From: a virus
Lineage: Duplodnaviria; Caudoviricetes
DNA length: 64,000 bases
Direction: 5' to 3' (one strand)
IMG/VR virus record: IMGVR_UViG_3300020577_007133
Location: 1-64,000 of that record
Part shown: positions 493-18,738 of the stretch, one piece after another
Layout: each line of letters starts with the position of its first letter
Numbering within the stretch: position 1 is the first letter of the stretch
Translations under genes and position numbers: made by a program
Notes under the pieces: generated by a model
The model's database searches: none
What the model was told of the DNA's origin: nothing
What the model saw: only the letters and a program-made list of their open reading frames with translations

Positions 493-632
493 AAATTAAA
501 TGGGGGGTAATACCAAGAATGAGAATGTTATGGGGTAACCTATATCGATGGTGTAATTCTCGGGTCTCCCATTTAATTAAAAAAATAATCTAAAAACTAC
601 GAACTTTTTTATAAATCCGTATATTTATTATT

Positions 633-5335: not shown

Positions 5336-5405
5336 GGTCAGGTTGGTCGAGGAGGCCGGATGGATTGCAAACCCATCGGAGGGGGTTCGATACCCTCCCT
5401 GACCT
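5336..5405 (+). tRNA. tRNA-Cys(GCA)
   Basis: GATGG-ATTGCAAA-CCCATC region with GCA; GGTCAGG/CCTGACC; U73. Confidence 0.85.
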
Positions 5406-5444
5406 CAACAAATTTTTGAACTATTTATTAATAAATTAAAAATA

Positions 5445-5765
5445 ATGAATAAAAGTGTTTCAAAAATTAGACATATCGAAAAATCTAATGTATTATTAGA
5501 ACAACGATTTAATCCGATAGTTCCGGATGATGAGATGGACAAAACTAGTCTTTTACTATATAGAAAGATATTGGAAATGATGTCTAAATTAAAACCTAAA
5601 AAATTTAGGGATGGTGAAGAATTTATGAATGATGTCGTATTATCAACTTTAATGATGTTAAACGTTCCATTCGAAGAATTGGAAATAAAGGCCGAAAAAT
5701 TAATATCTCGATTTGGGGATATGATATTAGATTTTTATCATTCCCAAATGTCGAAAAATAAATAA
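5445..5765 (+). CDS. hypothetical late protein
   Basis: ORF preceded by TATTTAT late motif. Confidence 0.7.
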   Translation: MNKSVSKIRHIEKSNVLLEQRFNPIVPDDEMDKTSLLLYRKILEMMSKLKPKKFRDGEEFMNDVVLSTLMMLNVPFEELEIKAEKLISRFGDMILDFYHSQMSKNK

Positions 5766-7656: not shown

Positions 7657-7941
7657 ATGAAAAAATTTATTATTTCTGAAGAAGAAAAAAGAAATATTCT
7701 AAATCAATACAATATAAATGAAAATAATTTTCTAAAATTCAGATATACCGGTGACCAATATCCAACTTCCGAAATGTGTGATTGGGTTAGAAATGAAACC
7801 GAATATATGGAAGATTGGGATGAGTTAGATAGAGATTTACAAATGGATAAAATTAGAAATGATTTTTTTGATAAATTTCAAGAAGAACTAACAGATTTAA
7901 GTTATATGGAGATGTTAGATATTTTTTATAAATGTATTTAA
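7657..7941 (+). CDS. MKKFIISEEEK-family protein (putative internal head protein)
   Basis: Shared N-terminal leader; late motif upstream. Confidence 0.7.
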   Translation: MKKFIISEEEKRNILNQYNINENNFLKFRYTGDQYPTSEMCDWVRNETEYMEDWDELDRDLQMDKIRNDFFDKFQEELTDLSYMEMLDIFYKCI

Positions 7942-7943
7942 AT

Positions 7944-8339
7944 ATGAAAAAATTTATTATTTCTGAAGAAGAAAAAGACGATATATTGAATCAACATAAA
8001 GAAATTAAGGATAAACCTGAATTTCCTGAGGATAGAAGAACTTTGGATACCAATTTAAAATCATTTGATTTTACTCGTTTAAAATCTCAAGGTTTAACAC
8101 CATATTATGTTGAGACAAAATTGGGTAATAAGGTTAATATGGTTGAATTAACTAAACCAACTAAACAAGATTGGGGTACAAAACCAAAAGAAGTTTATTT
8201 ATTGACTCCGGATGAATATGAAAAAATTAAAAAATTAACGGATAATATAAATGAGATGATTGAACTCAAATTAAAACAAATTGAGTTATATAAACAATAC
8301 ATTCCGGCGGTTGCTTCAGAGATTATAAAGAAAAAATAA
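7944..8339 (+). CDS. MKKFIISEEEK-family protein
   Basis: Near-identical N-terminal DNA to 7657 gene; start at 7944. Confidence 0.7.
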   Translation: MKKFIISEEEKDDILNQHKEIKDKPEFPEDRRTLDTNLKSFDFTRLKSQGLTPYYVETKLGNKVNMVELTKPTKQDWGTKPKEVYLLTPDEYEKIKKLTDNINEMIELKLKQIELYKQYIPAVASEIIKKK

Positions 8340-8340
8340 T

Positions 8341-8757
8341 ATGAAAAAGTTAGTGATAACCGAAGAGGAAAAAAAGAATATTCTTGAACAACACTCAGAC
8401 GAACGTCAATCTAAGGAAGATAATATTATGTCTATGTTAGACCAAAATCCAAAACTTAAAGATTTAAAACAATTTGGGTTAAAATATAATGTAGGTTCAA
8501 TTAAAAATTTCTTAACTAAACAACTATCAAGAGAACATTGGAATCCGGAACATATGCCATTTCCATCAGAATTGAATATTTTGAATGTTCTTATCCAATC
8601 AAGATTAGTTAGATTTTATTTACACGAATTAATTAAAAAAAGAGGTGGTAACTATTGGTATAATTGGGAGAAAAAAATAAAAAAAGAGGATGTTGATAAC
8701 ATCCCAATCCCGGAAGCGTTATTTAACACCATAGTCCTTATTTTACAAAAGAAATAA
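8341..8757 (+). CDS. MKKLVITEEEK-family protein
   Basis: Shared N-terminal leader. Confidence 0.7.
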   Translation: MKKLVITEEEKKNILEQHSDERQSKEDNIMSMLDQNPKLKDLKQFGLKYNVGSIKNFLTKQLSREHWNPEHMPFPSELNILNVLIQSRLVRFYLHELIKKRGGNYWYNWEKKIKKEDVDNIPIPEALFNTIVLILQKK

Positions 8758-8758
8758 T

Positions 8759-9082
8759 ATGAAAAAGTTAGTTATAACTGAGGATTTAGAAAATCGAGTG
8801 ATGAATGACCAACATATTACTGATGAAATTAGTCGTAATCAAAAATTAAAAGGTCGGTCTAAATATGTTTTCAATGATAAAACACATAATTTAGAAACAT
8901 TTGGTTTAAGAAAATATAAAAGTGAATTTTACCCTCAGACAGTGTATTTTTTAACTCCGGAAGAAGTCGAATCATTCCACCAAGAAGAAATTCGAGTATA
9001 TAATTTACTTAAAAAGTTAGATAAGGCAAAAGAAACCATAATAAAATATATGGAATCTGTGGTAAGAAAAAAATTAAATTAA
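8759..9082 (+). CDS. MKKLVITE-family protein
   Basis: Shared leader; VYFLTPEE resembles VYLLTPDE of the 7944 gene. Confidence 0.7.
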   Translation: MKKLVITEDLENRVMNDQHITDEISRNQKLKGRSKYVFNDKTHNLETFGLRKYKSEFYPQTVYFLTPEEVESFHQEEIRVYNLLKKLDKAKETIIKYMESVVRKKLN

Positions 9083-9155
9083 AAAAAATCTTATCAATAC
9101 TTGACACTTTTATAAAAAGGTGTATATTTATTAGAAAATTACAATAACACAGAAA

Positions 9156-9230
9156 ATGCAAACATTAAATACAATACTATTATTAACAGGAGCGGAGGGT
9201 AGAGATACAACTCGGTCGGAGATGGTATGA
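9156..9230 (+). CDS. putative leader peptide MQTLNTILLLTGAEGRDTTRSEMV
   Basis: 24-codon ORF between late motif (about 9124) and terminator; its 3' end is complementary to the terminator 5' arm. Confidence 0.55.
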   Translation: MQTLNTILLLTGAEGRDTTRSEMV

Positions 9231-9261
9231 TGTATTGTTAAGTAAAATAATAATAACTGAT

Positions 9262-9295
9262 AAAGTCCATCTCCAAAAGAGATGGATTTTTTTTT
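9262..9295 (+). terminator. Rho-independent terminator / attenuator
   Basis: AAAGTCCATCTC-CAAAA-GAGATGGATTTT plus T run. Confidence 0.85.
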
Positions 9296-9349
9296 GAATT
9301 TTTTTTATAAAAAGTTTGGTGATTTGAAAATAAGTTATACCTTTGTCCT

Positions 9350-9589
9350 ATGGAATTTAGAACACAACATAACGGAAGAGGTAAGACCCATTTATTAGAT
9401 GACGAGTTGAATACGATATGTGGTTGTCACGGGGGTGATTTTTCACCTAGTGAAAGATTAATAATTGATGATGGTAAATTCTTTTTAAAGGGTTCTCTGA
9501 TTCAAGAAATATCCAAAGATTACTTATCAGTTGAGTATTGTAAAAAATGTGTAAAAATAATTGAAAAAAGTTTGGCAGTTTCAAAATAA
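9350..9589 (+). CDS. hypothetical protein (possible Zn-binding)
   Basis: Own promoter; H..CG..CKKC. Confidence 0.6.
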   Translation: MEFRTQHNGRGKTHLLDDELNTICGCHGGDFSPSERLIIDDGKFFLKGSLIQEISKDYLSVEYCKKCVKIIEKSLAVSK

Positions 9590-9625
9590 GTTGTATCTTT
9601 GTACCAAATTAAAAATGTAATTATT

Positions 9626-9838
9626 ATGTCGGACAAAAAAACGATGAATGAAGAATTAGTGATGGAATATTCTCCCATCTTAGGTGTGACTTACGGATTA
9701 AAAAATGTTACTCCGGAAAATGGGGATAGTGAAGAAGAACGTGATGAATTACACGACTTTGATTTAGTTATGAATCTGATAGTCGGTGATTTAGACGAAG
9801 AAGAAAAAAAAAAGATTAAAAAAAATTTGGTAGATTAA
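9626..9838 (+). CDS. hypothetical acidic protein
   Basis: Own promoter; ATG at 9626. Confidence 0.55.
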   Translation: MSDKKTMNEELVMEYSPILGVTYGLKNVTPENGDSEEERDELHDFDLVMNLIVGDLDEEEKKKIKKNLVD

Positions 9839-9877
9839 AAAAGATTTTATATCTTTGTACCGGAATTAAAAATAAAC

Positions 9878-9893
9878 GTTATTTGACATATTG
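9878..9893 (+). promoter_or_regulatory. rrn-type boxA-like antitermination element
   Basis: GTTATTTGACATATTG just after a promoter and ahead of the tRNA run; related copies at 28609 and 29543. Confidence 0.55.
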
Positions 9894-9905
9894 GTAATAT
9901 AAAAT

Positions 9906-9977
9906 GGCCCGGTCGTCTAATGGTCAGGACATTTGGTTTTCAACCAAAAAATCGGATTTCGATTATCCGTCGGGCTA
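9906..9977 (+). tRNA. tRNA-Glu(TTC)
   Basis: TTTGG-TTTTCAA-CCAAA; GGCCCGG/TCGGGCT. Confidence 0.85.
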
Positions 9978-10148
9978 CAAATGGTTAGGTAACGTAAGCC
10001 TTTACTGAATAGCTATCAGTAAGAATCACGTTATGGTCTTTGCAGAACTGAGGTGGTACTCTGACAGATTATCCGGGTTCGATTCCCGGGACGCAGGCAC
10101 GCAACTAGTTCCCTACCAAGGGGTTTTGAGAACAGAGACCTAAAATAA

Positions 10149-10218
10149 GGGCCAGATGCCAACGGCAGGTCAACTGATTTGCAATCAGATTGTTTGGGTT
10201 CGACTCCCACTGTGTCCA
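10149..10218 (+). tRNA. tRNA-Ala(TGC), imperfect acceptor stem
   Basis: CTGA-TTTGCAA-TCAG; G3:U70; T arm intact. Confidence 0.7.
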
Positions 10219-10285
10219 CGATGTAGGGTTTTACACTTTTATATTTCCTTGACGATGAATATCTGAGAAAGAAAAAGTGAATTTT

Positions 10286-10360
10286 GGTCTCGTGGGCTTC
10301 GCGGAGAGGAACTTGACTGTCACTCAAGTAAAATAGAGGGTTCGACCCCCTCCGGGACCG
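10286..10360 (+). tRNA. tRNA-Asp(GTC)
   Basis: CTTGA-CTGTCAC-TCAAG; G73. Confidence 0.85.
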
Positions 10361-10376
10361 CTAAAAATTAAAGAAG

Positions 10377-10826
10377 ATGAGTTTAGTAAAAAAAGTGAAT
10401 GCTGACTTCGTGACGGCTTTCAAAGAAAAGGACACAATTGGTAAAATGGCTTTGGGTAATTTGAAATCTAAATTATCTGACGCTGAAAAAATCAAGAAAA
10501 GTGAATTGACGGATGATGAGGCGTTAAAAGTAATTGTATCAATTGCAAAAACTCGTAATCAATCAATTCAAGAATTTACCAAGGCCGGAAGAATGGATTT
10601 GGTGGAATCAGAGAAATCTGAGTTGGAAGTTATTGAGAAATATCTTCCAAAACAAATGACGGAGGACGAAATTGAATCTGAAGTTCGTAAATTAATTGTT
10701 GAGATGGAGGTAACAACAAATCCACAAGTTCTAATCGGTAAAACGATGGGAGCGTTCAACAAGAAATTTCAAGGAAGAGCGGATGTACAATTAGTTAAAA
10801 AAATAATTGAAAAAGTTGTTGGTTAA
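10377..10826 (+). CDS. GatB/YqeY domain protein
   Basis: ..AFKEKD..RNQSIQEFTKAGRMDLVESEKSELEVIEKYLPKQMTEDEI.. Confidence 0.9.
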   Translation: MSLVKKVNADFVTAFKEKDTIGKMALGNLKSKLSDAEKIKKSELTDDEALKVIVSIAKTRNQSIQEFTKAGRMDLVESEKSELEVIEKYLPKQMTEDEIESEVRKLIVEMEVTTNPQVLIGKTMGAFNKKFQGRADVQLVKKIIEKVVG

Positions 10827-10986
10827 TTAAAAACTATTTCGTATCTTTGTCGAAGAATTAAGTAGAGGTGCTCGCAAGGTTTAGTTTAGTGTTAGTAGCA
10901 CCACCTCTACAGACTATCTGATTATTCATATCAGTCGGTCCGGAGTAATGTCCGGGGGTAGGTACCAAGTAACTCTACCAAAATTT

Positions 10987-11061
10987 GGTCTATTCGTTCA
11001 TCGGCTAGGATGCTACCCTGTCACGGTAGAGAGGAGGGTTCGACTCCCTCATAGACCGCCA
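10987..11061 (+). tRNA. tRNA-Asp(GTC)
   Basis: CTACC-CTGTCAC-GGTAG; encoded GCCA. Confidence 0.95.
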
Positions 11062-11472
11062 AACATTACAAGAGTCGTAAGCTATAATGACCCGGGCGGT
11101 TGTATCCGGACAATCAAAGTAGACAGATATCTTGTGATGGGGATAATAACCTACAACCGGCTCTGTTATCCTAAACATAAAATAGGAGTAATTAACCTAT
11201 CTTGGACGGGTTCGAAACCGTAAAGTAGTTAGAGTGTAGGCACGGCACGACCCGCTCGAGTAACTTGGAGTATTGAACGACGATAGTGTTAGTAGCACAC
11301 AATAGGGATAAAGGGCAAGTGAAAAAGGGGGTAAGTTTAAGGTTCGAGTCCTTATTAACTATCAAAAAAAAATTAGTGTAGTGTAAACGGAGAATCGACC
11401 GTTCTGTTTATTTAATCCCAATGGACGATTATGGTTTTTACCATCAGCTGGTCACTAATTTTTAACATACAT

Positions 11473-11548
11473 CGCAGGTGGGGGGTATAGAGTTTCCTCG
11501 AGTCTCATAAACTCGACGTAAGACAGGGGCGGTACCTGTACTTTGCTA
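11473..11548 (+). tRNA. tRNA-Met/Ile2(CAT), atypical
   Basis: CGAGT-CTCATAA-ACTCG; T-loop GGCGGTA; weak acceptor. Confidence 0.65.
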
Positions 11549-11564
11549 CAAAAAATAGACATTA

Positions 11565-11604
11565 TGTGTATAGGTTTTTCGGGTTGTGTATAGGATTTTC
11601 GGGT
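11565..11604 (+). repeat. 20-bp tandem duplication TGTGTATAGGWTTTTCGGGT x2
   Basis: Direct reading; between tRNA and HNH late promoter. Confidence 0.85.
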
Positions 11605-11625
11605 TTTTCGTGATATTTATATAAT

Positions 11626-12180
11626 ATGGAAGAATTAAATAGACATCAGAAAGCAGCGTTAGTAAGTAATACTAGACGTAGAGAAAAATCACTACAAGAA
11701 TATTATAGTAATCCTAATATTTGTAAGTGTTGTAATAAACCAATTCCGGTTGGTGAAAAACAAAAAGTTAGGGAAGTTAGGAGAAAGATTTTTTGTGACC
11801 ATAGTTGTTCGGCAACATTTAATAATCAATTACGAGAAATTAAAGAAAAGGTTAAGAAAATAAAAGAACCTAAACCTAAAAAAGAAAAATTTGAATTTAT
11901 ATTAAGTTTAACTAAAAAAGATTTAATAAGTAAACACGAAATTTATTATAAATTTAGAGCAGTAATTCGGAAACACGCACATTATGTGTATAATAAACAT
12001 CACGAACATCAAGAATGTAAAGTTTGTGGTTATGACACACACGTTGAAGTTTGTCATATAAAATCAGTATCATCTTTTAGTGATGATACTCTAATAAGTG
12101 AAATAAATTCTATTGATAATTTAGTTGGATTATGTCCTAATCATCATTGGGAATTTGATAATGGTAAGATAACATTATAA
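11626..12180 (+). CDS. HNH endonuclease
   Basis: CKVCG..EVCHIK..NLVGLCPNHHWEFD; FCDHSCS Zn motif. Confidence 0.9.
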   Translation: MEELNRHQKAALVSNTRRREKSLQEYYSNPNICKCCNKPIPVGEKQKVREVRRKIFCDHSCSATFNNQLREIKEKVKKIKEPKPKKEKFEFILSLTKKDLISKHEIYYKFRAVIRKHAHYVYNKHHEHQECKVCGYDTHVEVCHIKSVSSFSDDTLISEINSIDNLVGLCPNHHWEFDNGKITL

Positions 12181-12185
12181 TATAT

Positions 12186-12256
12186 TGCGGTTTGGTGTAA
12201 TTAGTAGCATAAGGGGCTCATAACCCCAAGGCGAGGTGCAAGTCCTTAATCCGCTA
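12186..12256 (+). tRNA. tRNA-fMet(CAT)
   Basis: GGGG-CTCATAA-CCCC anticodon stem and 1:72 mismatch. Confidence 0.8.
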
Positions 12257-12325
12257 GATAATCGAAGTTAATCCACCTCCACGTGGTGATTGTTGGAAAC
12301 AGGTTATGCTGGCTGAGAGATTAAC
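12257..12325 (+). ncRNA. HDV-like (theta) self-cleaving ribozyme at tRNA 3' end
   Basis: P1 GATAATC/GATTGTT with G1:U, P2 GTTAATC/GATTAAC, P3 ACC/GGT, L3 TCCACGT, P1.1 GG, P4 CAG/CTG, J4/2 CTGA (CNRA). Confidence 0.85.
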
Positions 12326-12355
12326 AAAAAATTTATTAACATTAAATACCTACGT

Positions 12356-12529
12356 ATGGCGACAGTTCAACAAAAGTCGAGACAAGCGAGAGCTTTAGAG
12401 ATGTTACAACATCAATTAAAAAGTGGTGTAAAAACCCAAAAAGGAACAAGGGACGTTAAAGTTCCACTAACCGATTTAGACAGAAAGAGGTTAGAAAAAG
12501 AGATTGGAATTTTACAATCCAAATTATAA
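12356..12529 (+). CDS. small basic hypothetical protein (57 aa)
   Basis: MATVQQKSRQARALEMLQHQL..RLEKEIGILQSKL; not in ORF track. Confidence 0.6.
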   Translation: MATVQQKSRQARALEMLQHQLKSGVKTQKGTRDVKVPLTDLDRKRLEKEIGILQSKL

Positions 12530-12618
12530 TAAAAAAATAGATGAATAGACCACATCCGGGATTAGTGATTTAATTAAAGGGTCTCATTCGGTACACAAGT
12601 CCGAAGTTCATCTTAACT

Positions 12619-12689
12619 GCGAGTATGGTATAAAGGTATTACATCATCCTGCCACGATGGAGATTCCGGTTCAATTCCGGGTACTCGCT
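12619..12689 (+). tRNA. tRNA-Gly(GCC)
   Basis: TCATC-CTGCCAC-GATGG; GCGAGTA/TACTCGC, U73. Confidence 0.9.
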
Positions 12690-12783
12690 CAAAATAGATT
12701 TGGGTGTAGGGTTATGATACGACATAACTCTTTCAATTTAATCGTAAAGATTGATAATCGCCGCAGCGAAATCTGTTTTATTT

Positions 12784-12857
12784 GCGACTTTGGTGTTCAA
12801 TGGCTAGCATATGACCCTTCCAAGGTTGAGGTACGGGTTCGAGTCCCGTAAGTCGCT
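12784..12857 (+). tRNA. tRNA-Gly(TCC)
   Basis: TGACC-CTTCCAA-GGTTG; U73. Confidence 0.9.
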
Positions 12858-13060
12858 CAAAATAGTGAAAAAGTAATTATATGAAGTAACCTTCGGGGAG
12901 ACTGCCGGAACCCTTTAACACATAGGTTGGTGAAAGTATAATGAAAGACAACGGCGCACCGGTCGTCCTCTCGGGAGTAGCTACCCGTAACGGATATGGA
13001 GATGATGTCATAGCTCCTTTAGACCGCAATGGTGAAAAATTTGGTCAAACTATTTTATTT

Positions 13061-13134
13061 GCGGGTATGGTGTTTAACGGCTAGCACGTGGGCCTTCCAA
13101 GTCTGAAGTTTCGGTTCGAATCCGAATATCCGCT
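13061..13134 (+). tRNA. tRNA-Gly(TCC)
   Basis: TGGGC-CTTCCAA-GTCTG; U73. Confidence 0.9.
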
Positions 13135-13308
13135 CAAAAAAATACGACGGAAATAGGTTAATCAGCACCTGTTATCACACATCTCAGGATACTACGTAAC
13201 TGCAGCGAATCGTAGGGAGAGATAGAAGGGAATAACCCGGGTCGGCCAACCCAAGTGGGGAAAAACTTAAAGTGGATTGTGGTGATGCTCCACAGCAGTA
13301 TTTTAATT

Positions 13309-13382
13309 GGTTCCGTAGTTCAACCGGATAGAATATCAGATTTCTAATCTGAGGGTTGGGGGTTCGAATCCCTCCGGAATCA
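13309..13382 (+). tRNA. tRNA-Arg(TCT)
   Basis: TCAGA-TTTCTAA-TCTGA. Confidence 0.95.
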
Positions 13383-13412
13383 CAAAATTTTTAATTTTAT
13401 TTGTTATTTTTT

Positions 13413-13676
13413 ATGAAAAAAATTGTTTTAAGTTTGATATTATTAGTATCTTTGGCATCTTGTACGGAGAATCAAAGAGTGAAAAGTTTTGGTGGAACCG
13501 GAACAATCAATTTACCTCAGGGTGAAAAATTGGTAAATGTAACTTGGAAAGAAGACCATCTTTGGACCATCACAAGACCAATGAGAGAAGGTGACGTTGC
13601 AGAAACTTACAAATTCCACGAGGATTCAAGTTTCGGAATTGTTCAAGGAACTTATAATATTGTTGAGACGAAGTAA
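13413..13676 (+). CDS. lipoprotein
   Basis: MKKIVLSLILLVSLASC lipobox. Confidence 0.75.
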   Translation: MKKIVLSLILLVSLASCTENQRVKSFGGTGTINLPQGEKLVNVTWKEDHLWTITRPMREGDVAETYKFHEDSSFGIVQGTYNIVETK

Positions 13677-13710
13677 TTGAAAAACGGATAGGTGAAAGTC
13701 CTATCAAACG

Positions 13711-13785
13711 CCTCCGTGGGCAAACTGGAAAAGCCGTCTGATTTAGGCTCAGAAGATTTTGTGGGTTCGACTCCCACCGGAGGTA
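13711..13785 (+). tRNA. tRNA-Leu(TAG), short variable arm
   Basis: TCTGA-TTTAGGC-TCAGA; GCCTCCG/CGGAGGT. Confidence 0.85.
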
Positions 13786-13893
13786 CAAAATACATTATCA
13801 TAACTCGGTGTGATACACCGCCAAATATCTCCTTAAACAACGTGGGAACTGCGGTTCTCCCAATGTGGCCGAAGTGATAATGTAAACTTAAAG

Positions 13894-14014
13894 ATAACTA
13901 TGTCGGAAGTGGTATACGAAGTGGTGTGTTAAATGTGGGAATAGACATAATCCCTAACCCGTAAAGGGCTAACTGCTTGTCTCTTGGTTACAGGTTCGAG
14001 TCCTGTTGGTTATC
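13894..14014 (+). ncRNA. tRNA-like RNA with about 45-nt structured insert replacing anticodon loop
   Basis: ATAACTA/TGGTTAT acceptor, D arm, AGTGGT/ACTGCT stem, ACAGG-TTCGAGT-CCTGT T arm. Confidence 0.65.
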
Positions 14015-14067
14015 AGTAGTTTAAGAGACAGAGCTGACTTCTACTTAAAAAAAATGCTCTGCGACAG

Positions 14068-14150
14068 GCCGGTGTCGCATAGAGGTTGATTGCACCTGAT
14101 TTGTAATCAGGAACTGAAAGGTCACGTTGGTTCGAATCCAATCACCGGCT
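14068..14150 (+). tRNA. tRNA-Thr(TGT), enlarged variable region
   Basis: CCTGA-TTTGTAA-TCAGG; GCCGGTG/CACCGGC. Confidence 0.85.
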
Positions 14151-14213
14151 CAAAAAAAGATAAAAAAGTTTTGATTAATTAAAATGATTATTTTATCTTT
14201 GTCGAAGAAAAAT

Positions 14214-14330
14214 GGGTAGATGGTAAATGGTAAAGCGTCCGGGGCGCCGGGAGATGAGGTTCGAGTCCTCGAAGTAGCCGGCAGGTGAAAAAGTATGGTA
14301 CTATTGTAGGTTCGAATCCTACTCTATCCA
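14214..14330 (+). ncRNA. tRNA-like RNA with two T arms and no anticodon loop
   Basis: GGGTAGA/TCTATCC acceptor; GAGG-TTCGAGT-CCTC and GTAGG-TTCGAAT-CCTAC. Confidence 0.6.
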
Positions 14331-14556
14331 CGAGTCGTTTTTTGGGGGTTCAGTTTGTGAGTCTGTTTTTTGTAGTTAAGAAAAATCAGTGGGGACAAAT
14401 AGGTAGTTAGAAGTTTCTTACCCTTAAAAGAAAGGATGGTTCGGTTTAGGACGAGATAGACAATACTTATTGGGGAAATCTCTCAAAAAAAATGGAAGAA
14501 TGGTCAAGGTTAACTCAAACCGAAGATGAATAACGTGTTCATCAGTTTTTCCGGTA

Positions 14557-14632
14557 GGTCAGGTGGAAGAGTTGGTACTTCGTTCGGTGGGAAACTGCCG
14601 AAAGGTCACGGGTTCGAGTCCCGTCCTGACTT
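14557..14632 (+). ncRNA. tRNA-like RNA with anticodon loop replaced by GAAA tetraloop
   Basis: Canonical acceptor, D and T arms; TTCGGTGG-GAAA-CTGCCGAA. Confidence 0.75.
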
Positions 14633-14857
14633 CAGGTCATCTCCTTTCGTTCTCTCCGTATGAGGGTATGGGTTCTTGGATGTAAAATGTTGAACTCGGA
14701 CGGGTGAAATAAACCAAACGATAATACGGCCTTTTTACAAATTTTTGTGCGGACAAAAAATACGGGTTCTTCGGTGGGTACCGGGTTACTTCCCTTAAAA
14801 TAACACAACTACTAAAAGTATGGGCACATATGGGGAAACCGAACCCGTGTCCTATAT

Positions 14858-14944
14858 GGTCAGGTGGCGTAATGGTAACGTAGATAGGTGATAGGGAATT
14901 TATCCTCCATCTGTCGGTCACAGGTTCGAATCCTGTCCTGACTA
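14858..14944 (+). ncRNA. tRNA-like RNA with extended anticodon-arm hairpin
   Basis: GGTCAGG/CCTGACT; GATAGGT/ATCTGTC enclosing an inner hairpin. Confidence 0.7.
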
Positions 14945-14949
14945 CAAAA

Positions 14950-15056
14950 CCTTCTGTAGTTTAACAAGAGCAAAACACAGAGACGAATACATCTCCCTAC
15001 GGTAACCATTCCAAGAATGTATTAAGAGTATGTGGGTTCGACTCCCACTGGAAGGG
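14950..15056 (+). ncRNA. tRNA-like RNA with large insert
   Basis: CCTTCTG/TGGAAGG, GTTT/AAAC D arm, AATACAT/ATGTATT stem with 24-nt loop, T arm. Confidence 0.65.
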
Positions 15057-15069
15057 CAAAAATAAAAAC

Positions 15070-15176
15070 AGTCAGGTGGCGGAATTGGTAGACGCTTTAA
15101 GGATATGTATAGGTGAAATTCCTATCACACAGGATATTGGCTGATGTCCATACAGGTTCGAATCCTGTCCTGACTA
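15070..15176 (+). ncRNA. Leu-type tRNA-like RNA with replaced anticodon arm
   Basis: AGTCAGG/CCTGACT, GCGGAATTGGTAGACGC D arm, ATAGG-TGAAATT-CCTAT insert, long variable arm. Confidence 0.7.
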
Positions 15177-15396
15177 CAATTGAGATTGAGATACTCAACA
15201 GATTTGGCATCGTTTCTTAAACAAAGATGTAGCTGACGCCTCAAACGGTTTTACAGAGGGGGTCTTCGGAAAAACGGCAAGAGAACCATCTTGACCTCCG
15301 AGTATATGGTTGACTTTTACAAGGTGTAAGAACCACAGGGTTTCAATAGGAAAACCGGAAATATCCACACCAAAGTAATCTCATTGGTGGAAAATT

Positions 15397-15477
15397 GCCC
15401 GGATGGTGTAACGGTAGCCACGCGGAGTTTAAGCCTCCGTGTCCATTGACGTGAGGGTTCGACTCCCTCTCCGGGTA
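15397..15477 (+). tRNA. tRNA-Leu(TAA)
   Basis: CGGAG-TTTAAGC-CTCCG, variable arm. Confidence 0.9.
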
Positions 15478-15555
15478 CTAAATGGTAATCGTAAATTTTT
15501 TTATAAAAAACTTAAACTTTGTGTAGGTTCGAGATATTTATAATAAAAGGATATT

Positions 15556-16377
15556 ATGAAATATAGACACACAAAAGAAGAACTTGAGGATGTAGTTAAA
15601 AAATCGTTATCAATATCACAAGTATGTAAAAATTTAGGTATTATTGCTGCGGGTGGTAATTATAAAACGATACAAAACAAAATAATTGAATTTGATATTA
15701 ATATATCACACTTTACCGGTAAAGGGTGGAATACTGGTGAAAGATATAGAAAAGTTATATTACCAATACCTTTGAATGAAATATTAGTAAAGGGGTCTGT
15801 ATATGGTAGTAGTAAATTGAAAAAAAGATTGATTGATGAAGGATTAAAAACTTCTAAGTGTGAGTGTTGTAATTTATCAGAATGGATGGGAAATCCAATT
15901 GGTTTGGAATTACATCACATCAACGGGGATTCAAATGATAATCAATTACATAATTTACAAATTTTATGTCCAAATTGTCATTCTATGACTGATAATTATA
16001 GAGGTAGAAATATTAAAACAAAAAAAACAGAACCAACTGAAGAATGGGTCAACACCACACTTAAATATGTTATAAATAAGAGTGATGATGAAACAAAACA
16101 AATAAAAAAACAAGAAATTAAACAATGTTTAACTTGTAACGGAGAATATACCGGAAAAAGTAAAAAATATTGTTCCATTGAATGTTATTACGAAGCAAAA
16201 AGAATAAATAACACAATCCCGAAAGTTCCTGAATTATTGGAAATTTTTGAAAAATATAAAACATTCACATCCGTTGGTCGTCATTACAATGTTAGTGATA
16301 ATGCGGTTAGAAAGTGGTGTAGAAATTATGGGATTATGGAAATGATACAAAATATTCAAACATTAAAGCGACAGTGA
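15556..16377 (+). CDS. HNH homing endonuclease with C-terminal HTH
   Basis: CECC..LELHHINGDSNDNQLHNLQILCPNCHS; VSDNAVRKWC. Confidence 0.9.
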   Translation: MKYRHTKEELEDVVKKSLSISQVCKNLGIIAAGGNYKTIQNKIIEFDINISHFTGKGWNTGERYRKVILPIPLNEILVKGSVYGSSKLKKRLIDEGLKTSKCECCNLSEWMGNPIGLELHHINGDSNDNQLHNLQILCPNCHSMTDNYRGRNIKTKKTEPTEEWVNTTLKYVINKSDDETKQIKKQEIKQCLTCNGEYTGKSKKYCSIECYYEAKRINNTIPKVPELLEIFEKYKTFTSVGRHYNVSDNAVRKWCRNYGIMEMIQNIQTLKRQ

Positions 16378-16480
16378 CACATAGACCACGTGGGGCACAC
16401 ATAAAATAGTATCAGTCGAAAGTCGAGGTGATAGACCACCATATGTTTGATATTTATTATTTAATGATTATATTACCGGT

Positions 16481-16990
16481 ATGAGAAAAATTAGACAAAA
16501 AAATGGTTCTTTACATAAAGGTCTCAAAAAAGTAAATATTGGAGATGATGTTTGGGTTTACGGGAGACAAAATTATGTACCCGGAAAAGGATTACATATG
16601 GTAATCTACGGACCTAACAGAAAAGAATATCACGTTTGGGGTAAGGATGTTACTGACTTAACTAAATCTGAAGATTCCGACCACTATGATAATTGGGGTT
16701 ATTGTAATCGACAAGGTAATAGAGCGATTCAATCAAAAGTTAAAATTTACATTTTAACAAATATTCTTGATAAAAAAGAAAATTGGTGTTTTGACTTGAA
16801 TAAAATTCCGGAAACGGGATATCTTAAAGTAATGTGTGAAAATGGAACAGTTAAGAATATTGATTTTAACGGTAAGTTTCTCCCACAAGAATTAGTGTCT
16901 AAAAGGTATACGTGGAAGGAAGGACAGATGTGGAATAGACCGGCTCATTCAACACAAACATTTGTAAATATAATTGGATATAGAAATTAA
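16481..16990 (+). CDS. hypothetical protein
   Basis: ORF with upstream late motif. Confidence 0.7.
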   Translation: MRKIRQKNGSLHKGLKKVNIGDDVWVYGRQNYVPGKGLHMVIYGPNRKEYHVWGKDVTDLTKSEDSDHYDNWGYCNRQGNRAIQSKVKIYILTNILDKKENWCFDLNKIPETGYLKVMCENGTVKNIDFNGKFLPQELVSKRYTWKEGQMWNRPAHSTQTFVNIIGYRN

Positions 16991-17051
16991 ATTAGTATGA
17001 AAAACCAAGACCCAAACTCCTCATAGTCCCTTATTGTTAGCAATAAGGATT

Positions 17052-17282
17052 ATGACTCAGAAATTGAGAATTTGGAGAGTAGTTCCCGTGAGATACGGTG
17101 TTCAGGCTCCCACGTTTTTCGTAGAAACTACGGAAGACGGACGTGAGAAGGCAGAAGAATCTGCAATGAGACAAGCAAGATTAAAATCAGGTTTGTCTAG
17201 GTTTAAGGAATGGAAATTCCGATTGGAGAAACTCTCTGTGAGGGTTGATAAATTTGGTAGGTATAAACCTCACCATCAGTAA
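17052..17282 (+). CDS. hypothetical basic protein
   Basis: ORF; ATG at 17052. Confidence 0.55.
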   Translation: MTQKLRIWRVVPVRYGVQAPTFFVETTEDGREKAEESAMRQARLKSGLSRFKEWKFRLEKLSVRVDKFGRYKPHHQ

Positions 17283-17372
17283 TCAATAAAAACCGCTGGG
17301 GGTTTCAAATTACTCAGTGTACTTTTTAGGTTAAAGTCGTGTAGGGTGTTTTTAACATCAAAACCTAAATTT

Positions 17373-17445
17373 CGTCCCGTAGCTTATGTGGTAGAAGCAC
17401 TTGACTCATAATCAGGAGAATTGGGTTCGACTCCCAACGGGACAA
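17373..17445 (+). tRNA. tRNA-Met/Ile2(CAT)
   Basis: CTTGA-CTCATAA-TCAGG; C1:A72. Confidence 0.85.
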
Positions 17446-17566
17446 CAATCGATATTTGAGTGTAAGCAAGGTATAATATCAGTCGTTGGACTCTTACAGG
17501 TCGCGAACGGTGGTCTGATTGTCGTTAATCAGTGTAGGTACCCGGGAACCCTACGTTTATCAGAAT

Positions 17567-17596
17567 AGACCTCCAAGGAAACTTGGGGGTTTTTTT
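17567..17596 (+). terminator. Rho-independent terminator ending tRNA island
   Basis: AGACCTCCAAG-GAAA-CTTGGGGGTTT plus T run. Confidence 0.85.
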
Positions 17597-17795
17597 ATAA
17601 TAAAGTTGTTTTTGCTCAATAAAGTTGATAGCTTTATTAAAAGATTTTTACTTTATTATTGATTAAAAACAAAATATCCTTATAATTATAAATGAAACCT
17701 TGTTGCTGAGGTTCTCGTGTCCACAGAGGCATTTGAGTTGGAATTAATACCAACGAAGAGAAGTTCAATAAACATAAAAATAAAATAAGGAAATT

Positions 17796-18635
17796 ATGTA
17801 TTACTTACAAACAAAAACAGGTACGCCTTATGCGTATATCACAAAAGACAGAAAACGTCTTAAACAATTTGGACAAAATGTCTATCTAAACAATGGGGAT
17901 GAATTCGAACTTGAATTATTTAACCCATCAACTACCACAGTATTAGCGAAAATCAAACTTGACGGAAGTTATATTTCAGGAGGAGGAATTGTTCTTAAAC
18001 CGGGACAACGAGTTTATCTTGAGAGATATCTTGATGACCCACGTAAATTCAAATTTGAAACTTATGAGGTTGACGGAACATCAAATGAGGTATTGGATGC
18101 AATCGCCGGAAATGGGGATGTTGTTATCGACTTCTTTGATGAGTATAAACAACCGGTGTGGAATAATCCAATAACATATTATGGTGGTTCATTCGGTGGG
18201 CCAATTCATACTTATAGTACCAATACTTTTTCAGGTGGTTATGCTAATACAACATTAAGTAATAATGTGTCATTTACATCATCATCTACTTCTACAAGTT
18301 TTGCCGGCCCAAACAAAAGAGATTTTTTAAGAAGTACAACATCAAGATTAAAAAAATCAAAAGGTAATTCTCGTAGTGAAGTTACTATGGATATGTTATC
18401 TATGGACTCAATCGAAACCGGTAGAGTTGAAAAAGGTGGTTCATCTGACCAATCATTCAAAACCGTAGATAAAACTTTTTTACCTTACACTTGCTCAACT
18501 TCTATATGGAAGATTCTTCCTATGTCACAAAAGGTGTATGATAAACAAGAATTAAAAGTATATTGTACTAACTGCGGAAAAAAAAGAAAAAAAGATTCCG
18601 ATAAATTTTGTTCTTCTTGTGGGAACAAATTCTAA
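17796..18635 (+). CDS. hypothetical protein with C-terminal zinc ribbon
   Basis: YCTNCG..FCSSCGNKF. Confidence 0.75.
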   Translation: MYYLQTKTGTPYAYITKDRKRLKQFGQNVYLNNGDEFELELFNPSTTTVLAKIKLDGSYISGGGIVLKPGQRVYLERYLDDPRKFKFETYEVDGTSNEVLDAIAGNGDVVIDFFDEYKQPVWNNPITYYGGSFGGPIHTYSTNTFSGGYANTTLSNNVSFTSSSTSTSFAGPNKRDFLRSTTSRLKKSKGNSRSEVTMDMLSMDSIETGRVEKGGSSDQSFKTVDKTFLPYTCSTSIWKILPMSQKVYDKQELKVYCTNCGKKRKKDSDKFCSSCGNKF

Positions 18636-18738
18636 AAAATAAACAAATAACAAGGTTTCAAAATAAATCCATCATTTTTTTAGTGATGGATTTTTTTATT
18701 TAAAAAATTTGTTTATCTTTGTAGCAAAATTAAATGTT

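What the first reader, a model, noticed from the sequence alone, without database searches (positions are those of the whole stretch)
9100..9295. Leader-peptide attenuator upstream of the main tRNA block
Seen: late motif, then a 24-codon ORF, then a terminator. GGAGATGG in the last codons (9218-9225) is the exact complement of CCATCTCC in the terminator 5' arm (9267-9274). The ORF's second half uses G-ending codons that look rare in this AT-rich genome (GCG, GAG, CGG, TCG). Inference: a ribosome reaching the stop masks the antiterminator; a stalled or absent ribosome allows read-through, so translation failure would switch on phage tRNAs. Caveat: three host-type promoters lie downstream, so this could only gate the late transcript.
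Basis: partly seen in the sequence, partly recalled or inferred. Interest (0 to 1): 0.8.

Follow-up and report, generated by a model that had tools for sequence, protein, structure and literature searches.

The report
Leader-peptide attenuator before phage tRNA genes
A 24-codon mini-gene wired to a switchable transcription stop sits in front of this giant phage's main tRNA gene block and is written largely in the codons those tRNAs read, so it probably lets the phage's own promoter transcribe the tRNA genes only when ribosomes run short of those tRNAs; I found no published case of this trp-operon-style control applied to tRNA genes.

Summary

The unit is conserved in about 40 related contigs of uncultured ~310-kb T4-like phages, always upstream of the block that starts with tRNA-Glu. 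The ORF keeps its start, stop and length, and the terminator shows compensatory changes.

Four further short-ORF-plus-terminator units occur in more distant relatives (three in L006, one in L007). A second type ('leader B') occurs in the window's own phage family. All precede tRNA sub-blocks:
- **Pairing.** In five of the six unit types the last codons of the ORF pair significantly with the terminator's 5' arm, using a different helix sequence each time (combined p 3.5e-5).
- **Codons.** Each leader is enriched in codons read by the tRNAs just downstream (window 15/23, P=0.01; combined p 6e-8).

Best reading: a ribosome-mediated attenuator (confidence 0.65).

Caveats:
- There is no experimental evidence.
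- Nine of 22 close relatives have a weakened antiterminator.
- In the window three host-type promoters lie downstream, so only the phage-promoter transcript is gated.

This scan has already reported the same design in other phages. I found no publication on it.

The parts
9101..9131 (+). Phage-type promoter: TTGACA (9101-9106) overlapping an ACTTTT box (9106-9111), then TATATTTAT with the late-type motif ATATTTAT (9124-9131).
   Evidence: 11 of 12 matches, best in 20 kb; an AACTTTT box 12-13 nt upstream of ATATTTAT recurs before other genes; invariant in relatives.
9132..9155 (+). A-rich 5' leader without a Shine-Dalgarno sequence. The transcription start is inferred, not mapped.
   Evidence: Indels that are not multiples of three occur here but not in the ORF.
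9156..9230 (+). Leader ORF of 24 codons, MQTLNTILLLTGAEGRDTTRSEMV, stop TGA at 9228-9230.
   Evidence: the frame is open in all 22 distinct relatives while the other two frames carry 1-3 stops, and the only indel is in frame; 15 of 23 codons are read by the downstream tRNA block (P=0.01).
9167..9182 (+). Candidate region 1 (codons 4-9), able to pair with 9220-9236.
   Evidence: one search gives p=0.038. Not significant in the other unit types, so inconclusive.
9218..9225 (+). Region 2: GGAGATGG, the antiterminator strand, covering the last base of codon 21 through the first base of codon 24.
   Evidence: The inner GATGG is invariant in 22 relatives.
9262..9274 (+). Region 3: 5' arm of the terminator (core TCCATCTC 9266-9273). 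C9274 lies in the terminator loop but pairs in the antiterminator.
9279..9295 (+). Region 4: 3' arm of the terminator (GAGATGGA 9279-9286) and a run of nine T (9287-9295).
   Evidence: two compensatory base-pair changes across relatives.
9315..9345 (+). Host-type (Bacteroidota-like) promoter motif TTTG-N19-TACCTTTG. One such motif follows the terminator in every close relative.
9350..9838 (+). Two small ORFs (9350-9589 and 9626-9838) without known families, the second with its own host-type promoter (9571-9601). They are absent at this place in most relatives.
   Evidence: Spacing to tRNA-Glu in relatives.
9826..9856 (+). Third host-type promoter motif, directly before tRNA-Glu.
9906..17446 (+). 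tRNA block A, the presumed regulated genes: Glu, probable Ala(TGC) at 10150-10218, Asp, Asp, Met, Gly(GCC), Gly, Gly, Arg(TCT), Leu(TAG), Thr(TGT), atypical tRNA-like genes, Leu(TAA), Met.

Best explanation
The unit is a ribosome-mediated (leader-peptide) transcription attenuator.

**Proposed mechanism**
1. A phage-specific promoter (9101-9131) starts a transcript whose first 24 codons are translated.
2. As RNA polymerase proceeds, the last codons of the leader (GGAGAUGG, region 2) can pair with the 5' arm of the terminator (CCAUCUCC, region 3). That pairing prevents the terminator hairpin (regions 3:4).
3. If the ribosome translates smoothly to the stop codon, it covers region 2. The terminator then forms and transcription ends at the T run (9295).
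4. If the ribosome stalls within about codons 3-16, or does not translate at all, region 2 stays free. The antiterminator forms and transcription reads on towards the tRNA block.
5. Codons 3-16 are mostly Thr, Leu, Gly, Glu and Arg codons read by the tRNAs encoded downstream. The circuit would therefore be a negative feedback that raises phage tRNA synthesis when exactly those tRNAs are limiting.

**Scope in this window.** Host-type promoters lie behind the terminator, so the attenuator can gate only the share of tRNA transcription that comes from the phage promoter. That share presumably matters once host-type promoters are no longer used.

**Shown versus inferred.** Shown by computation: the parts, their conservation, the alternative pairings, and the codon-to-tRNA match. 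Inferred: translation of the ORF, coupling to transcription, stalling, and the timing of promoter use.
For: **1. Conservation.**
- The unit occurs in about 40 related viral contigs, always upstream of the tRNA-Glu-led block.
- The ORF keeps its start, stop and 23-24 codons although up to about half of its middle bases differ. Its only indel is 3 nt. The other two frames carry 1-3 stops.

**2. Terminator.** Two compensatory pairs, CG<->UA and UA<->CG.

**3. Antiterminator.**
- In the nascent RNA, folded before the 3' arm exists, the minimum-energy fold pairs the 5' arm with the GAUGG region in 19 of 21 relatives. The full-length fold is always the terminator.
- The duplex reaches -11.9 to -16.8 kcal/mol with p<=0.022 in 13 of 22 distinct relatives.

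**4. Genome-wide control.** I scanned about 105 terminator-like hairpins in G000, L006, L049, L050, L007 and L136-L138. Significant complementarity of the 5' arm to the upstream 110 nt (p<=0.027) was found at only six hairpins:
- this unit and three other leader units, in L006 (two) and L007;
- two others: L136 minus strand at 498 (p=0.010, a 14-codon ORF upstream, no tRNA downstream) and L137 at 11903 (p=0.027, no short ORF).

Two such hits are about what chance predicts.

**5. Independent unit types with different helix sequences**:

| Unit | Pairing |
|---|---|
| L006-1 | GAUUCGGA : UCUGAAUC |
| L006-2 | CAGG-UUUU : AAAA-G-CCUG |
| L006-3 | UACCGA : UCGGU, not significant |
| L007 | GGGUGUGUU : AACACACCC |
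| Leader B (same phage family) | AGUUCAG..GAUUU : AAAUC-CUGAACU |

In all of them region 2 lies in the last 2-12 codons of the ORF. Fisher-combined p=3.5e-5.

**6. Leader codons mirror the downstream tRNAs.**

| Leader | Codons read by own block | P |
|---|---|---|
| Window | 15/23 (null 7.9 +/- 2.4) | 0.010 |
| L006-1 | 23/31 | 0.013 |
| L006-2 | 8/30 | 0.049 |
| L006-3 | 15/23 | <0.0005 |
| L007 | 19/34 | <0.002 |
| Leader B | 24/39 | 0.048 |

- The window's leader matches the upstream tRNA block at only 2 of 23 codons.
- Cross-pairing leaders with the wrong blocks gives lower matches in most cases.
- Leader A/B against block A/B gives Fisher p=0.006, 0.05 and 0.002.
- The combined p over the six unit types is 6e-8.

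**7. Modularity.** The order of cassettes A and B differs between relatives, but each leader stays with its block.

**8. No bypass in L006.** The terminators lie 10-16 nt before the first tRNA with no room for another promoter.
Against: - There are no expression or ribosome data. The RNA-library data available were assembled contigs only.
- Within the close family the antiterminator shows no column-wise covariation. Its inner 5 bp never vary, and its outer 3 bp decay in one clade. When the 5' arm changed C to T, the 3' arm compensated but region 2 did not.
- In 9 of 22 distinct relatives the duplex is weak (-7.4 to -8.2 kcal/mol, p 0.25-0.45), and the terminator is favoured by 5-11 kcal/mol.
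- Substitutions in the ORF show no third-position excess (23/21/23 variable states), so the peptide sequence itself is hardly constrained. This is expected for a leader peptide but does not prove translation.
- The 1:2 'protector' helix is supported weakly in the window (p=0.038) and not in the other units.
- In the window and its close relatives a host-type promoter follows the terminator, so the tRNA block can be transcribed without passing the attenuator.
- The window's codon match is moderate (P=0.01) and vanishes if only the first five tRNAs are counted (5/23, P=0.43).
Confidence: 0.65

Rival explanations
1. A free-standing micro-gene. The promoter, 24-codon ORF and terminator make a small peptide, or a peptide plus a short RNA, with its own function. 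Its position before the tRNA block is inherited synteny, and the complementarity to the terminator arm has no regulatory role.
For: - The unit has its own promoter and a strong terminator.
- A host-type promoter follows the unit in all close relatives, so the tRNAs do not depend on it.
- The N-terminus M(Q/K)TL and the C-terminus MV are conserved.
- Nine of 22 relatives have a weak antiterminator.
Against: - There is no third-position bias, and the middle of the peptide changes freely.
- Codon usage in the second half is among the worst 1% of the genome.
- The reading does not explain why five other unit types with unrelated peptides sit before other tRNA sub-blocks, each mirroring its block's anticodons, with four of the five pairing significantly with their own terminator arm.
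- No protein family can be tested at 24 residues.
Confidence: 0.12
2. An insulator. The terminator simply ends upstream late transcription (the MKKLVITEE genes at 7657-9082 and the short transcript) so that the host-type promoter and tRNA block behind it are shielded. The ORF and the 8-bp match are by-products.
For: - A terminator followed by a host-type promoter is a common arrangement in this genome, for example 18665-18693 followed by a promoter before 18739.
- The terminator is the best-supported helix.
Against: - A dedicated, invariant promoter sits only 25 nt before the ORF.
- The ORF is kept open over 22 distinct sequences.
- Among the roughly 53 terminator-like hairpins of the window's own genome (G000), only this one has significant upstream complementarity.
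- In L006 the equivalent terminators lie directly before tRNAs with no promoter after them. A pure insulator there would silence the tRNAs.
Confidence: 0.1
3. A small regulatory RNA of about 165 nt, transcribed from 9131 to 9295 and acting in trans. The ORF is incidental or secondary, as with rnTrpL, the sRNA released by the trp attenuator of Sinorhizobium (PMC7968998).
For: - It is a discrete promoter-to-terminator unit.
- The fold is more stable than shuffles (z = -3.0).
- The GC-rich core is conserved at the nucleotide level in the close family.
Against: - No Rfam family matches.
- Apart from the terminator, no consensus structure with covariation emerges.
- The core diverges by about 50% in L016 and L004 while the reading frame is kept.
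- This reading is compatible with the attenuator reading rather than a true alternative to it.
Confidence: 0.05

Closest known systems
Leader-peptide (ribosome-mediated) transcription attenuators of amino-acid biosynthetic operons: trpL, hisL, leuL, pheL and the multivalent thrL and ilvL of enterobacteria (textbook knowledge; mechanism summarised in PMC3082878)
   Same: - A short translated ORF lies in the transcript leader.
- An intrinsic terminator follows it.
- A segment at the end of the ORF can pair with the terminator's 5' arm.
- The ORF is enriched in codons whose decoding reports on the product of the regulated genes.
- The distance from the stop codon to the terminator (about 65 nt) is similar to that in trpL.
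- It is multivalent, with several amino acids sampled, like thrL and ilvL.
   Different: - The regulated genes are tRNA genes, not amino-acid biosynthesis genes.
- The signal would be the tRNA supply itself.
- The leader samples 6-12 different codon families rather than a run of one.
- The element is phage-encoded and driven by a phage-specific promoter.
- The 1:2 pause/protector hairpin is not demonstrable.
- In this window an independent promoter follows the terminator.
- There is no sequence similarity to any Rfam leader family.
T-box riboswitches of Gram-positive bacteria (established knowledge)
   Same: Both couple the state of the tRNA pool to a terminator/antiterminator decision in a transcript leader.
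   Different: - A T-box binds uncharged tRNA directly through a specifier codon and needs no ribosome or ORF.
- It controls synthetase and amino-acid genes.
- No T-box match was found here, and the element contains a conserved ORF.
The silent long tRNA array (trn operon) of Anabaena sp. PCC 7120, induced under translational stress (PMC8421152) through the repressor TrcR (PMC10272220)
   Same: An accessory tRNA gene array is switched on when translation is impaired.
   Different: - Control there is by a DNA-binding repressor protein, not by a leader peptide and terminator.
- It is bacterial and plasmid-borne, not phage-borne.
Units of the same design noted earlier by this scan in other phage genomes (e1-5618024, e1-3258323, e1-3450868, e1-4038560, e1-3412744; AI notes, unpublished, not checked by me)
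   Same: A mini-ORF whose codons mirror the tRNA array behind it, coupled to a terminator/antiterminator.
   Different: - Those are other phage lineages with other sequences.
- New here are a phage-type promoter, a host-type promoter behind the terminator, and two complementary leader types (A and B) that divide the tRNA repertoire within one phage family.

Membership tests
Leader-peptide transcription attenuator (functional class) | A short ORF in the 5' leader, conserved as an ORF. | tested here: met
   23-24 codons with the same start and stop in 22 distinct relatives. The only indel is in frame. The other frames carry 1-3 stops.
Leader-peptide transcription attenuator (functional class) | The ORF is translated. 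| not testable with these tools
   No ribosome profiling exists. The public RNA libraries were available only as assembled contigs.
Leader-peptide transcription attenuator (functional class) | An intrinsic terminator lies between the leader ORF and the regulated genes. | tested here: met
   12-bp stem plus nine T. Two compensatory pair changes.
Leader-peptide transcription attenuator (functional class) | An antiterminator helix that excludes the terminator, with its 5' strand at or next to the end of the leader ORF. | tested here: met
   Window: 8 bp, -15.7 kcal/mol, p=0.012-0.017, at codons 21-24. Also met in 13 of 22 relatives and in four of five other unit types. Weak in 9 of 22 relatives, with no column-wise covariation.
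Leader-peptide transcription attenuator (functional class) | Regulatory codons in the leader that match the regulated product. | tested here: met
   15 of 23 codons are read by the downstream tRNA block (P=0.010), against 2 of 23 for the upstream block. Combined over six unit types, p=6e-8.
Leader-peptide transcription attenuator (functional class) | A 1:2 protector/pause hairpin. | tested here: inconclusive
   A helix joining codons 4-9 to the stop-codon region is predicted in every lineage, but in different registers. Fold z-scores range from -0.7 to -4.1. The duplex test gives p=0.038 for the window and is not significant elsewhere.
Leader-peptide transcription attenuator (functional class) | The regulated genes depend on read-through, with no independent promoter behind the terminator. 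| tested here: not met
   Three host-type promoter motifs lie at 9315, 9571 and 9826, and one follows the terminator in every close relative. The feature is met in L006, where tRNAs start 10-16 nt after the terminators.
Leader-peptide transcription attenuator (functional class) | Read-through responds to the supply of charged tRNA. | not testable with these tools
   This needs reporters or 3'-end mapping.
Rfam leader and T-box families (Thr_leader, His_leader, Leu_leader, Trp_leader, Bacteroid-trp, T-box) | A match to the covariance model. | tested here: not met
   No match at E<=1 within 9100-9300 in a permissive scan of 8000-18000.

The most novel reading that the evidence does not exclude
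These ~300-kb phages may run a modular tRNA-supply controller. Each tRNA sub-block would sit behind its own leader peptide that spells out the codons read by that block. In the window's family, leader A covers Thr, Leu, Gly, Ala, Glu, Arg and Asp, and leader B covers Lys, Asn, His, Val, Ser, Ile, Trp, Gln, Phe, Cys, Tyr, Pro and Arg. The phage would then measure decoding speed codon set by codon set and transcribe only the tRNA genes that are limiting, for instance when its AT-rich codon demand outruns the host pool or when host anticodon nucleases cleave particular tRNAs. This would be the first case of tRNA genes regulated by leader-peptide attenuation.
Probability: 0.5. Interest if true: 0.9.

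Novelty: new variant of a known kind. Interest (0 to 1): 0.8.

Why it matters
Leader-peptide attenuation is a textbook mechanism, but it is known for amino-acid biosynthesis and a few other protein-coding operons, not for tRNA genes.

If these units work as proposed:
- Phage tRNA arrays are demand-regulated by a direct readout of decoding speed, not constitutive 'codon-usage patches'. That bears on the long-running question of why large phages carry many tRNAs.
- It suggests a built-in response to tRNA depletion, including host defences that cleave tRNA.
- It provides compact, modular parts that report on specific tRNA pools.
- The hypothesis is directly testable with reporters, because each unit is under 200 nt.

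Tried and rejected
- **Rfam.** A permissive scan of 8000-18000 gave nothing in 9100-9300.
- **GenBank phages.**
  - There is no DNA relative of the region; the only hit was a 79-nt tRNA match.
  - The closest portal proteins are 36-39% identical.
  - tblastn with leader B found nothing.
- **Flanking small proteins as anchors.** The 79-aa and 107-aa ORFs have no relatives in viral contigs.
- **YqeY-like protein as anchor.**
  - It gave the first relatives.
  - Searched as an alignment it added only L137.
  - L137 and L138 hold no comparable unit.
- **Consensus folding.** RNAalifold on the close family returns only the terminator.
- **Column-wise covariation of the antiterminator.** None was found.
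- **1:2 protector helix.** Inconclusive.
- **Sequencing runs.**
  - Sixteen runs from wastewater, sludge and river samples hold half or more of the stretch's sampled words, but only as Logan contigs.
  - Contigs from three RNA libraries bridge the terminator and show no variants inside 9100-9295. That says nothing about transcription, because DNA may be present in those libraries.
- **A mis-specified promoter pattern for L006.** It found almost nothing.
- **Overlapping mini-ORF (ATGATG... after the stop) and GGAG as a Shine-Dalgarno site.** Rejected, because neither is kept in L016 or in the clade where codon 22 varies.
- **Rare codons 20-22 as sensors.** Rejected on geometry, because a ribosome stalled there covers region 2.
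- **Portal-based search for more distant genomes.** It returned only relatives at 70% identity or more, mostly short contigs, and I did not pursue it.
Full report
**Source and setting**

The window is the first 64 kb of a 104,772-bp IMG/VR viral contig estimated at 35% complete. It is AT-rich, about 32% G+C. It carries 22 tRNA genes plus a tmRNA called by ARAGORN, a few more tRNA-like genes seen by Rfam, and a T4-type portal gene. Complete relatives are about 310-320 kb. The nearest cultured phages are distant, with portal proteins 36-39% identical to those of Microcystis phage Mel-JY01 and Flavobacterium phage immuto.

Many genes are preceded by TTTG-N19-TAnnTTTG. From general knowledge this is the Bacteroidota housekeeping promoter type, so I call these 'host-type' promoters. 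That the host is a Bacteroidota member is an inference.

**The observation**

- The 'late motif' is ATATTTAT at 9124-9131. It recurs immediately upstream of many ORFs, including the portal gene.
- Here it belongs to a subclass with an AACTTTT box 12-13 nt upstream. That subclass also precedes HNH, GIY-YIG and TnpB genes.
- With the upstream TTGACA it is the best sigma-70-like match in the first 20 kb.
- The ORF at 9156-9230 encodes MQTLNTILLLTGAEGRDTTRSEMV.
- The terminator at 9262-9290, with nine T, is the second strongest in 20 kb.
- GGAGATGG (9218-9225) is the exact complement of CCATCTCC (9267-9274). The duplex energy between the arm and the upstream transcript is reached by only 1.2-1.7% of dinucleotide shuffles.
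- The rare-codon remark is correct. CGG is 1.2% of Arg codons, TCG 6% of Ser, CTA 6% of Leu. The second half of the ORF is in the lowest 1% for codon adaptation.
- Three host-type promoter motifs follow at 9315, 9571 and 9826.

**Conservation in close relatives**

I found relatives through a YqeY-like gene 1.1 kb downstream and through two DNA-pattern scans. About 40 viral contigs hold the unit, giving 22 distinct sequences, aligned as A2. In all of them the unit lies upstream of a tRNA block that starts with tRNA-Glu(UUC). In several relatives only about 60-95 nt and one host-type promoter separate the two.

- **Promoter.** Invariant.
- **ORF.**
  - It always has 23-24 codons with the same start and stop, even though the middle differs by up to about half of its bases in L016 and L004.
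  - The only indel inside it is 3 nt. The 5' leader and the spacer behind the stop carry indels that are not multiples of three.
  - The other two frames carry 1-3 stops in every sequence.
  - Substitutions are spread evenly over the codon positions (23/21/23 variable states). What is conserved is therefore the frame, not the peptide sequence, as expected for a leader peptide.
- **Terminator helix.** Two compensatory pair changes.

**The antiterminator in the close family**

The inner five pairs (GATGG:CCATC) never vary, so they are uninformative. The outer three pairs decay in one clade. There the arm became CCATCTTC and the 3' arm compensated (G to A). Region 2 did not compensate. Codon 22 became CAG, TCG, ACG or GTG.

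- Thirteen of 22 distinct sequences keep a strong duplex (-11.9 to -16.8 kcal/mol, p<=0.022).
- Nine have a weak one (-7.4 to -8.2 kcal/mol, p 0.25-0.45).

Codons 21 and 22 change their amino acid (S/K/T/M and E/Q/S/T/V), yet codon 22 always ends in G and codon 21 does so in all but one sequence (ACA in L022), although G-ending codons are rare in this genome. GAG is never replaced by the preferred GAA. This points to an RNA-level constraint on the segment.

Folding the nascent RNA up to the terminator loop pairs the 5' arm with this segment in 19 of 21 sequences. The full-length minimum-energy fold is always the terminator, favoured by 1.7-10.7 kcal/mol.

**More distant relatives**

This was the decisive step. 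L006 is a 294-kb contig whose YqeY protein is 57% identical to the window's. It carries three short-ORF-plus-terminator units. Each has a similar promoter (TTGAAACTTTTT ... TATATATAA), and each ends 10-16 nt before the first tRNA of a sub-block, with no room for another promoter. L007 (41% YqeY identity) has one unit whose peptide starts MKTINT, like the window's M(Q/K)TLN.

In the window's own phage family a second unit, 'leader B' (MKNTNKHMNVSIWNQQFSNCSYPRISHTSS..., 36-40 codons), precedes the other tRNA block. The window's contig begins inside that block, so leader B is not in the window.

**Test 1: pairing between ORF end and terminator arm**

I scanned about 105 terminator-like hairpins in the window's genome, 50 kb of the L006 genome, and the loci L007 and L136-L138. 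For each I tested complementarity of the 5' arm to the 110 nt upstream, using RNAduplex against 300 dinucleotide shuffles. Hairpins with p<=0.027:

| Hairpin | p | Context |
|---|---|---|
| This unit | 0.017 | Leader unit before tRNA block A |
| L006-1 | 0.023 | Leader unit before tRNAs |
| L006-2 | 0.01-0.02 | Leader unit before tRNAs |
| L007 | 0.013-0.023 | Leader unit before tRNAs |
| L136 minus strand, 498 | 0.010 | 14-codon ORF upstream, no tRNA downstream |
| L137, 11903 | 0.027 | No short ORF, no tRNA downstream |

Two hits outside the leader units are about what chance predicts. Leader B, tested separately on the tRNA-proximal terminators of nine relatives, gives p=0.013-0.05. L006-3 is not significant (p=0.34).

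The helices have unrelated sequences, which amounts to covariation at the level of the whole helix:

| Unit | Region 2 : region 3 |
|---|---|
| Window | GGAGAUGG : CCAUCUCC |
| L006-1 | GAUUCGGA : UCUGAAUC |
| L006-2 | CAGG-UUUU : AAAA-G-CCUG |
| L007 | GGGUGUGUU : AACACACCC |
| Leader B | AGUUCAG..GAUUU : AAAUC-CUGAACU |

In all six unit types the nascent-RNA fold pairs the arm with the last codons of the ORF, and the full-length fold is the terminator. The codons involved are 22-24 of 24, 29-33 of 40, 30-33 of 32, 26-30 of 31, 21-24 of 24, and 26-27 of 35. Fisher's combination over the six types gives p=3.5e-5.

**Test 2: leader codons against downstream tRNAs**

For each leader I counted the codons that the tRNAs between its terminator and the next unit can read, using conservative wobble rules. 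The null was windows of equal length from long ORFs of the same genome.

| Leader | Downstream tRNA block | Codons read | P |
|---|---|---|---|
| Window | Glu, Asp, Asp, Met, Gly x3, Arg(UCU), Leu(UAG), Thr(UGU), Leu(UAA), Met | 15/23 (null 7.9 +/- 2.4) | 0.010 |
| L006-1 (MIPTTNININMNFDWAIKFAGNDYVDSNVIRM) | Phe, Trp, Ile, Val, Ala, Asn, Asp, Asp, Lys, Tyr, Met, Met, Lys, Asn, Gly, Gly | 23/31 | 0.013 |
| L006-2 (...ECPRPEACENGM...) | Pro, Pro, Arg(ACG), Cys, Met, Glu, Glu, Met | 8/30 | 0.049 |
| L006-3 (MRTSSTLSLTSLQHLTRSENSTEV) | His, Ser(UGA), Ser(GCU), Arg(UCU), Gln, Gln, Thr, Leu, Leu, Leu | 15/23 | <0.0005 |
| L007 | Pro, Lys, Ala, Tyr, Gly, Trp, Ile, Arg, Thr, Cys | 19/34 | <0.002 |
| Leader B | Ser, Gln, Cys, Val, Tyr, Phe, Asn, His, Arg(ACG), Pro, Ile, Lys | 24/39 | 0.048 |

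- At the amino-acid level the window's leader scores 17/23 (P=0.006). Against the upstream tRNA block it scores only 2/23.
- For leader B, the first 27 codons score 21/27 (P=0.0016), but that cut was chosen after seeing the data.
- Pairing leaders with the wrong blocks gives lower scores in most cases.
- In three genomes that hold both leader A and leader B, the two-by-two test of leader against block gives p=0.006, 0.05 and 0.002.
- The order of the two cassettes is inverted in L011 relative to L017 and L029, yet each leader stays with its block.
- The combined p over the six unit types is 6e-8.
- The window's match is only moderate. It depends on counting at least the first ten tRNAs, since the first five alone give 5/23.
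- A probable tRNA-Ala(UGC) at 10150-10218, at the position where relatives have tRNA-Ala, would also make the GCG codon cognate.

**Mechanism**

The parts and their geometry match the classical attenuator. Region 2 lies at the last codons, region 3 is the terminator's 5' arm, and the stop codon lies about 65 nt before the end of the T run.

- A ribosome with its A site at or beyond about codon 17 would cover region 2, taking a footprint of about 12 nt downstream of the A-site codon (general knowledge).
- One stalled at codons 3-16 would leave region 2 free. Eleven of the 15 codons at positions 2-16 are read by tRNAs of the downstream block.
- Without any ribosome the nascent fold predicts antitermination.
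- A helix between codons 4-9 and the stop-codon region, the equivalent of 1:2, is predicted in every lineage but in different registers. It is significant only in the window (p=0.038). I leave it open.

They look constrained as RNA rather than chosen as sensors.

**Limits**

- Nothing here is experimental. The public RNA libraries that hold this phage were available only as assembled contigs, which cannot show transcript ends.
- In the window and its close relatives a host-type promoter follows the terminator. In the window two small ORFs with further copies of that promoter have been inserted before tRNA-Glu. The attenuator can therefore gate only transcription from the phage-type promoter.
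- A plausible but untested division of labour is unconditional tRNA expression from host-type promoters early in infection, and demand-controlled expression from the phage promoter later.
- The clade with the weakened antiterminator may terminate constitutively or may have a different set point.

**Comparison with what is known**

- **Leader-peptide attenuators (closest).** The unit works like the multivalent thr and ilv leaders. It differs in what it regulates, tRNA genes, and therefore in what it senses.
- **Rfam.** It matches no leader or T-box family.
- **T-box riboswitches.** These sense tRNA without a ribosome.
- **The Anabaena tRNA array.** It is induced by translational stress but controlled by the repressor TrcR (PMC8421152, PMC10272220).
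- **Literature.** Six full-text searches found no report of tRNA genes under leader-peptide attenuation, in phages or cells. From memory I cannot exclude older subscription-journal notes on attenuator-like leaders of bacterial tRNA genes.
- **Earlier notes of this scan.** Other agents have described the same design in other phage genomes. Those notes are unchecked AI reports. I reached the reading from my own data before consulting them, and they agree with it.

**Verdict**

- The best explanation is a ribosome-mediated attenuator of a phage tRNA block, with confidence 0.65.
- It is a new variant of a known kind of regulation and of high interest.

Noticed in passing
L017 minus strand 5446-5568 (ORF) and 5392-5422 (terminator); also L029 and L011: A second leader type occurs in the window's own phage family. 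'Leader B' (MKNTNKHMNVSIWNQQFSNCSYPRISHTSS..., 36-40 codons) with a terminator (AAAATCCTGAACTC..GTTCAGGATTTT) precedes the block Ser, Gln, Cys, Val, Tyr, Phe, Asn, His, Arg, Pro, Ile, Lys and is driven by a host-type promoter. The window's contig starts inside this block, so its leader B is missing.
   Followed up: yes
L006 3797-3952, 7147-7297, 9713-9853; L007 2748-2916: Three leader-plus-terminator units occur in a 294-kb relative and one in another relative. Each lies directly before a tRNA sub-block whose anticodons the leader mirrors. In L006 no promoter lies between terminator and tRNA.
   Followed up: yes
window 9219-9221 (codon 22) and the equivalent positions in L018-L046: In one clade of near-identical elements the first two bases of codon 22 vary widely (GAG, CAG, TCG, ACG, GTG) while the third base G and the following ATGGTATGA never change. 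This may be tuning of antiterminator strength or relaxed selection.
   Followed up: partly
window 9310-9345, 9566-9601, 9826-9856: There are three host-type promoter motifs. The first two are near-identical in sequence (AAAAAGTTTGG..TTT.AAAATAAGTT.TA.CTTTGT) and head two small ORFs of unknown family (9350-9589, 9626-9838). These look like insertions between the attenuator and tRNA-Glu, because most relatives have 60-310 nt there.
   Followed up: partly
window 621-628, 1399-1406, 15534-15541, 58170-58177 and upstream boxes: The promoter subclass AACTTTT-N12/13-ATATTTAT, shared by the leader, also precedes two HNH endonuclease genes (633-1055, 15556-16377), a SegE-like GIY-YIG gene (1421-2068) and a TnpB/IS605 OrfB gene (58185-59369).
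   Followed up: partly
window 10150-10218: A tRNA-like gene was not called by ARAGORN but scores 31.6 bits in Rfam. It has a TTTGCAA anticodon loop (Ala, UGC) and sits where relatives have tRNA-Ala.
   Followed up: partly
window 14214-14330, 14557-14633, 14858-14944, 15070-15177: Several atypical tRNA-like genes. One has a four-base anticodon call (gaaa). Others have acceptor and T arms but odd anticodon regions. 15070-15177 matches both ends of the tRNA-Arg(UCG) of relative L014 but has a different middle.
   Followed up: no
window 12257-12325: A weak Rfam match to an HDV-like ribozyme (30.5 bits, below the gathering score of 44) lies directly after tRNA-Met.
   Followed up: no
window 32474-32868 (minus strand): A phage-encoded tmRNA with the tag peptide GNILDKMSAIGLIRAEEVVVA.
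   Followed up: no
window 7657-9082: Four tandem small ORFs start with MKK(F/L)(I/V)I(S/T)EE and then diverge. The last ends 18 nt before the leader's promoter. No family was found for the last one.
   Followed up: no
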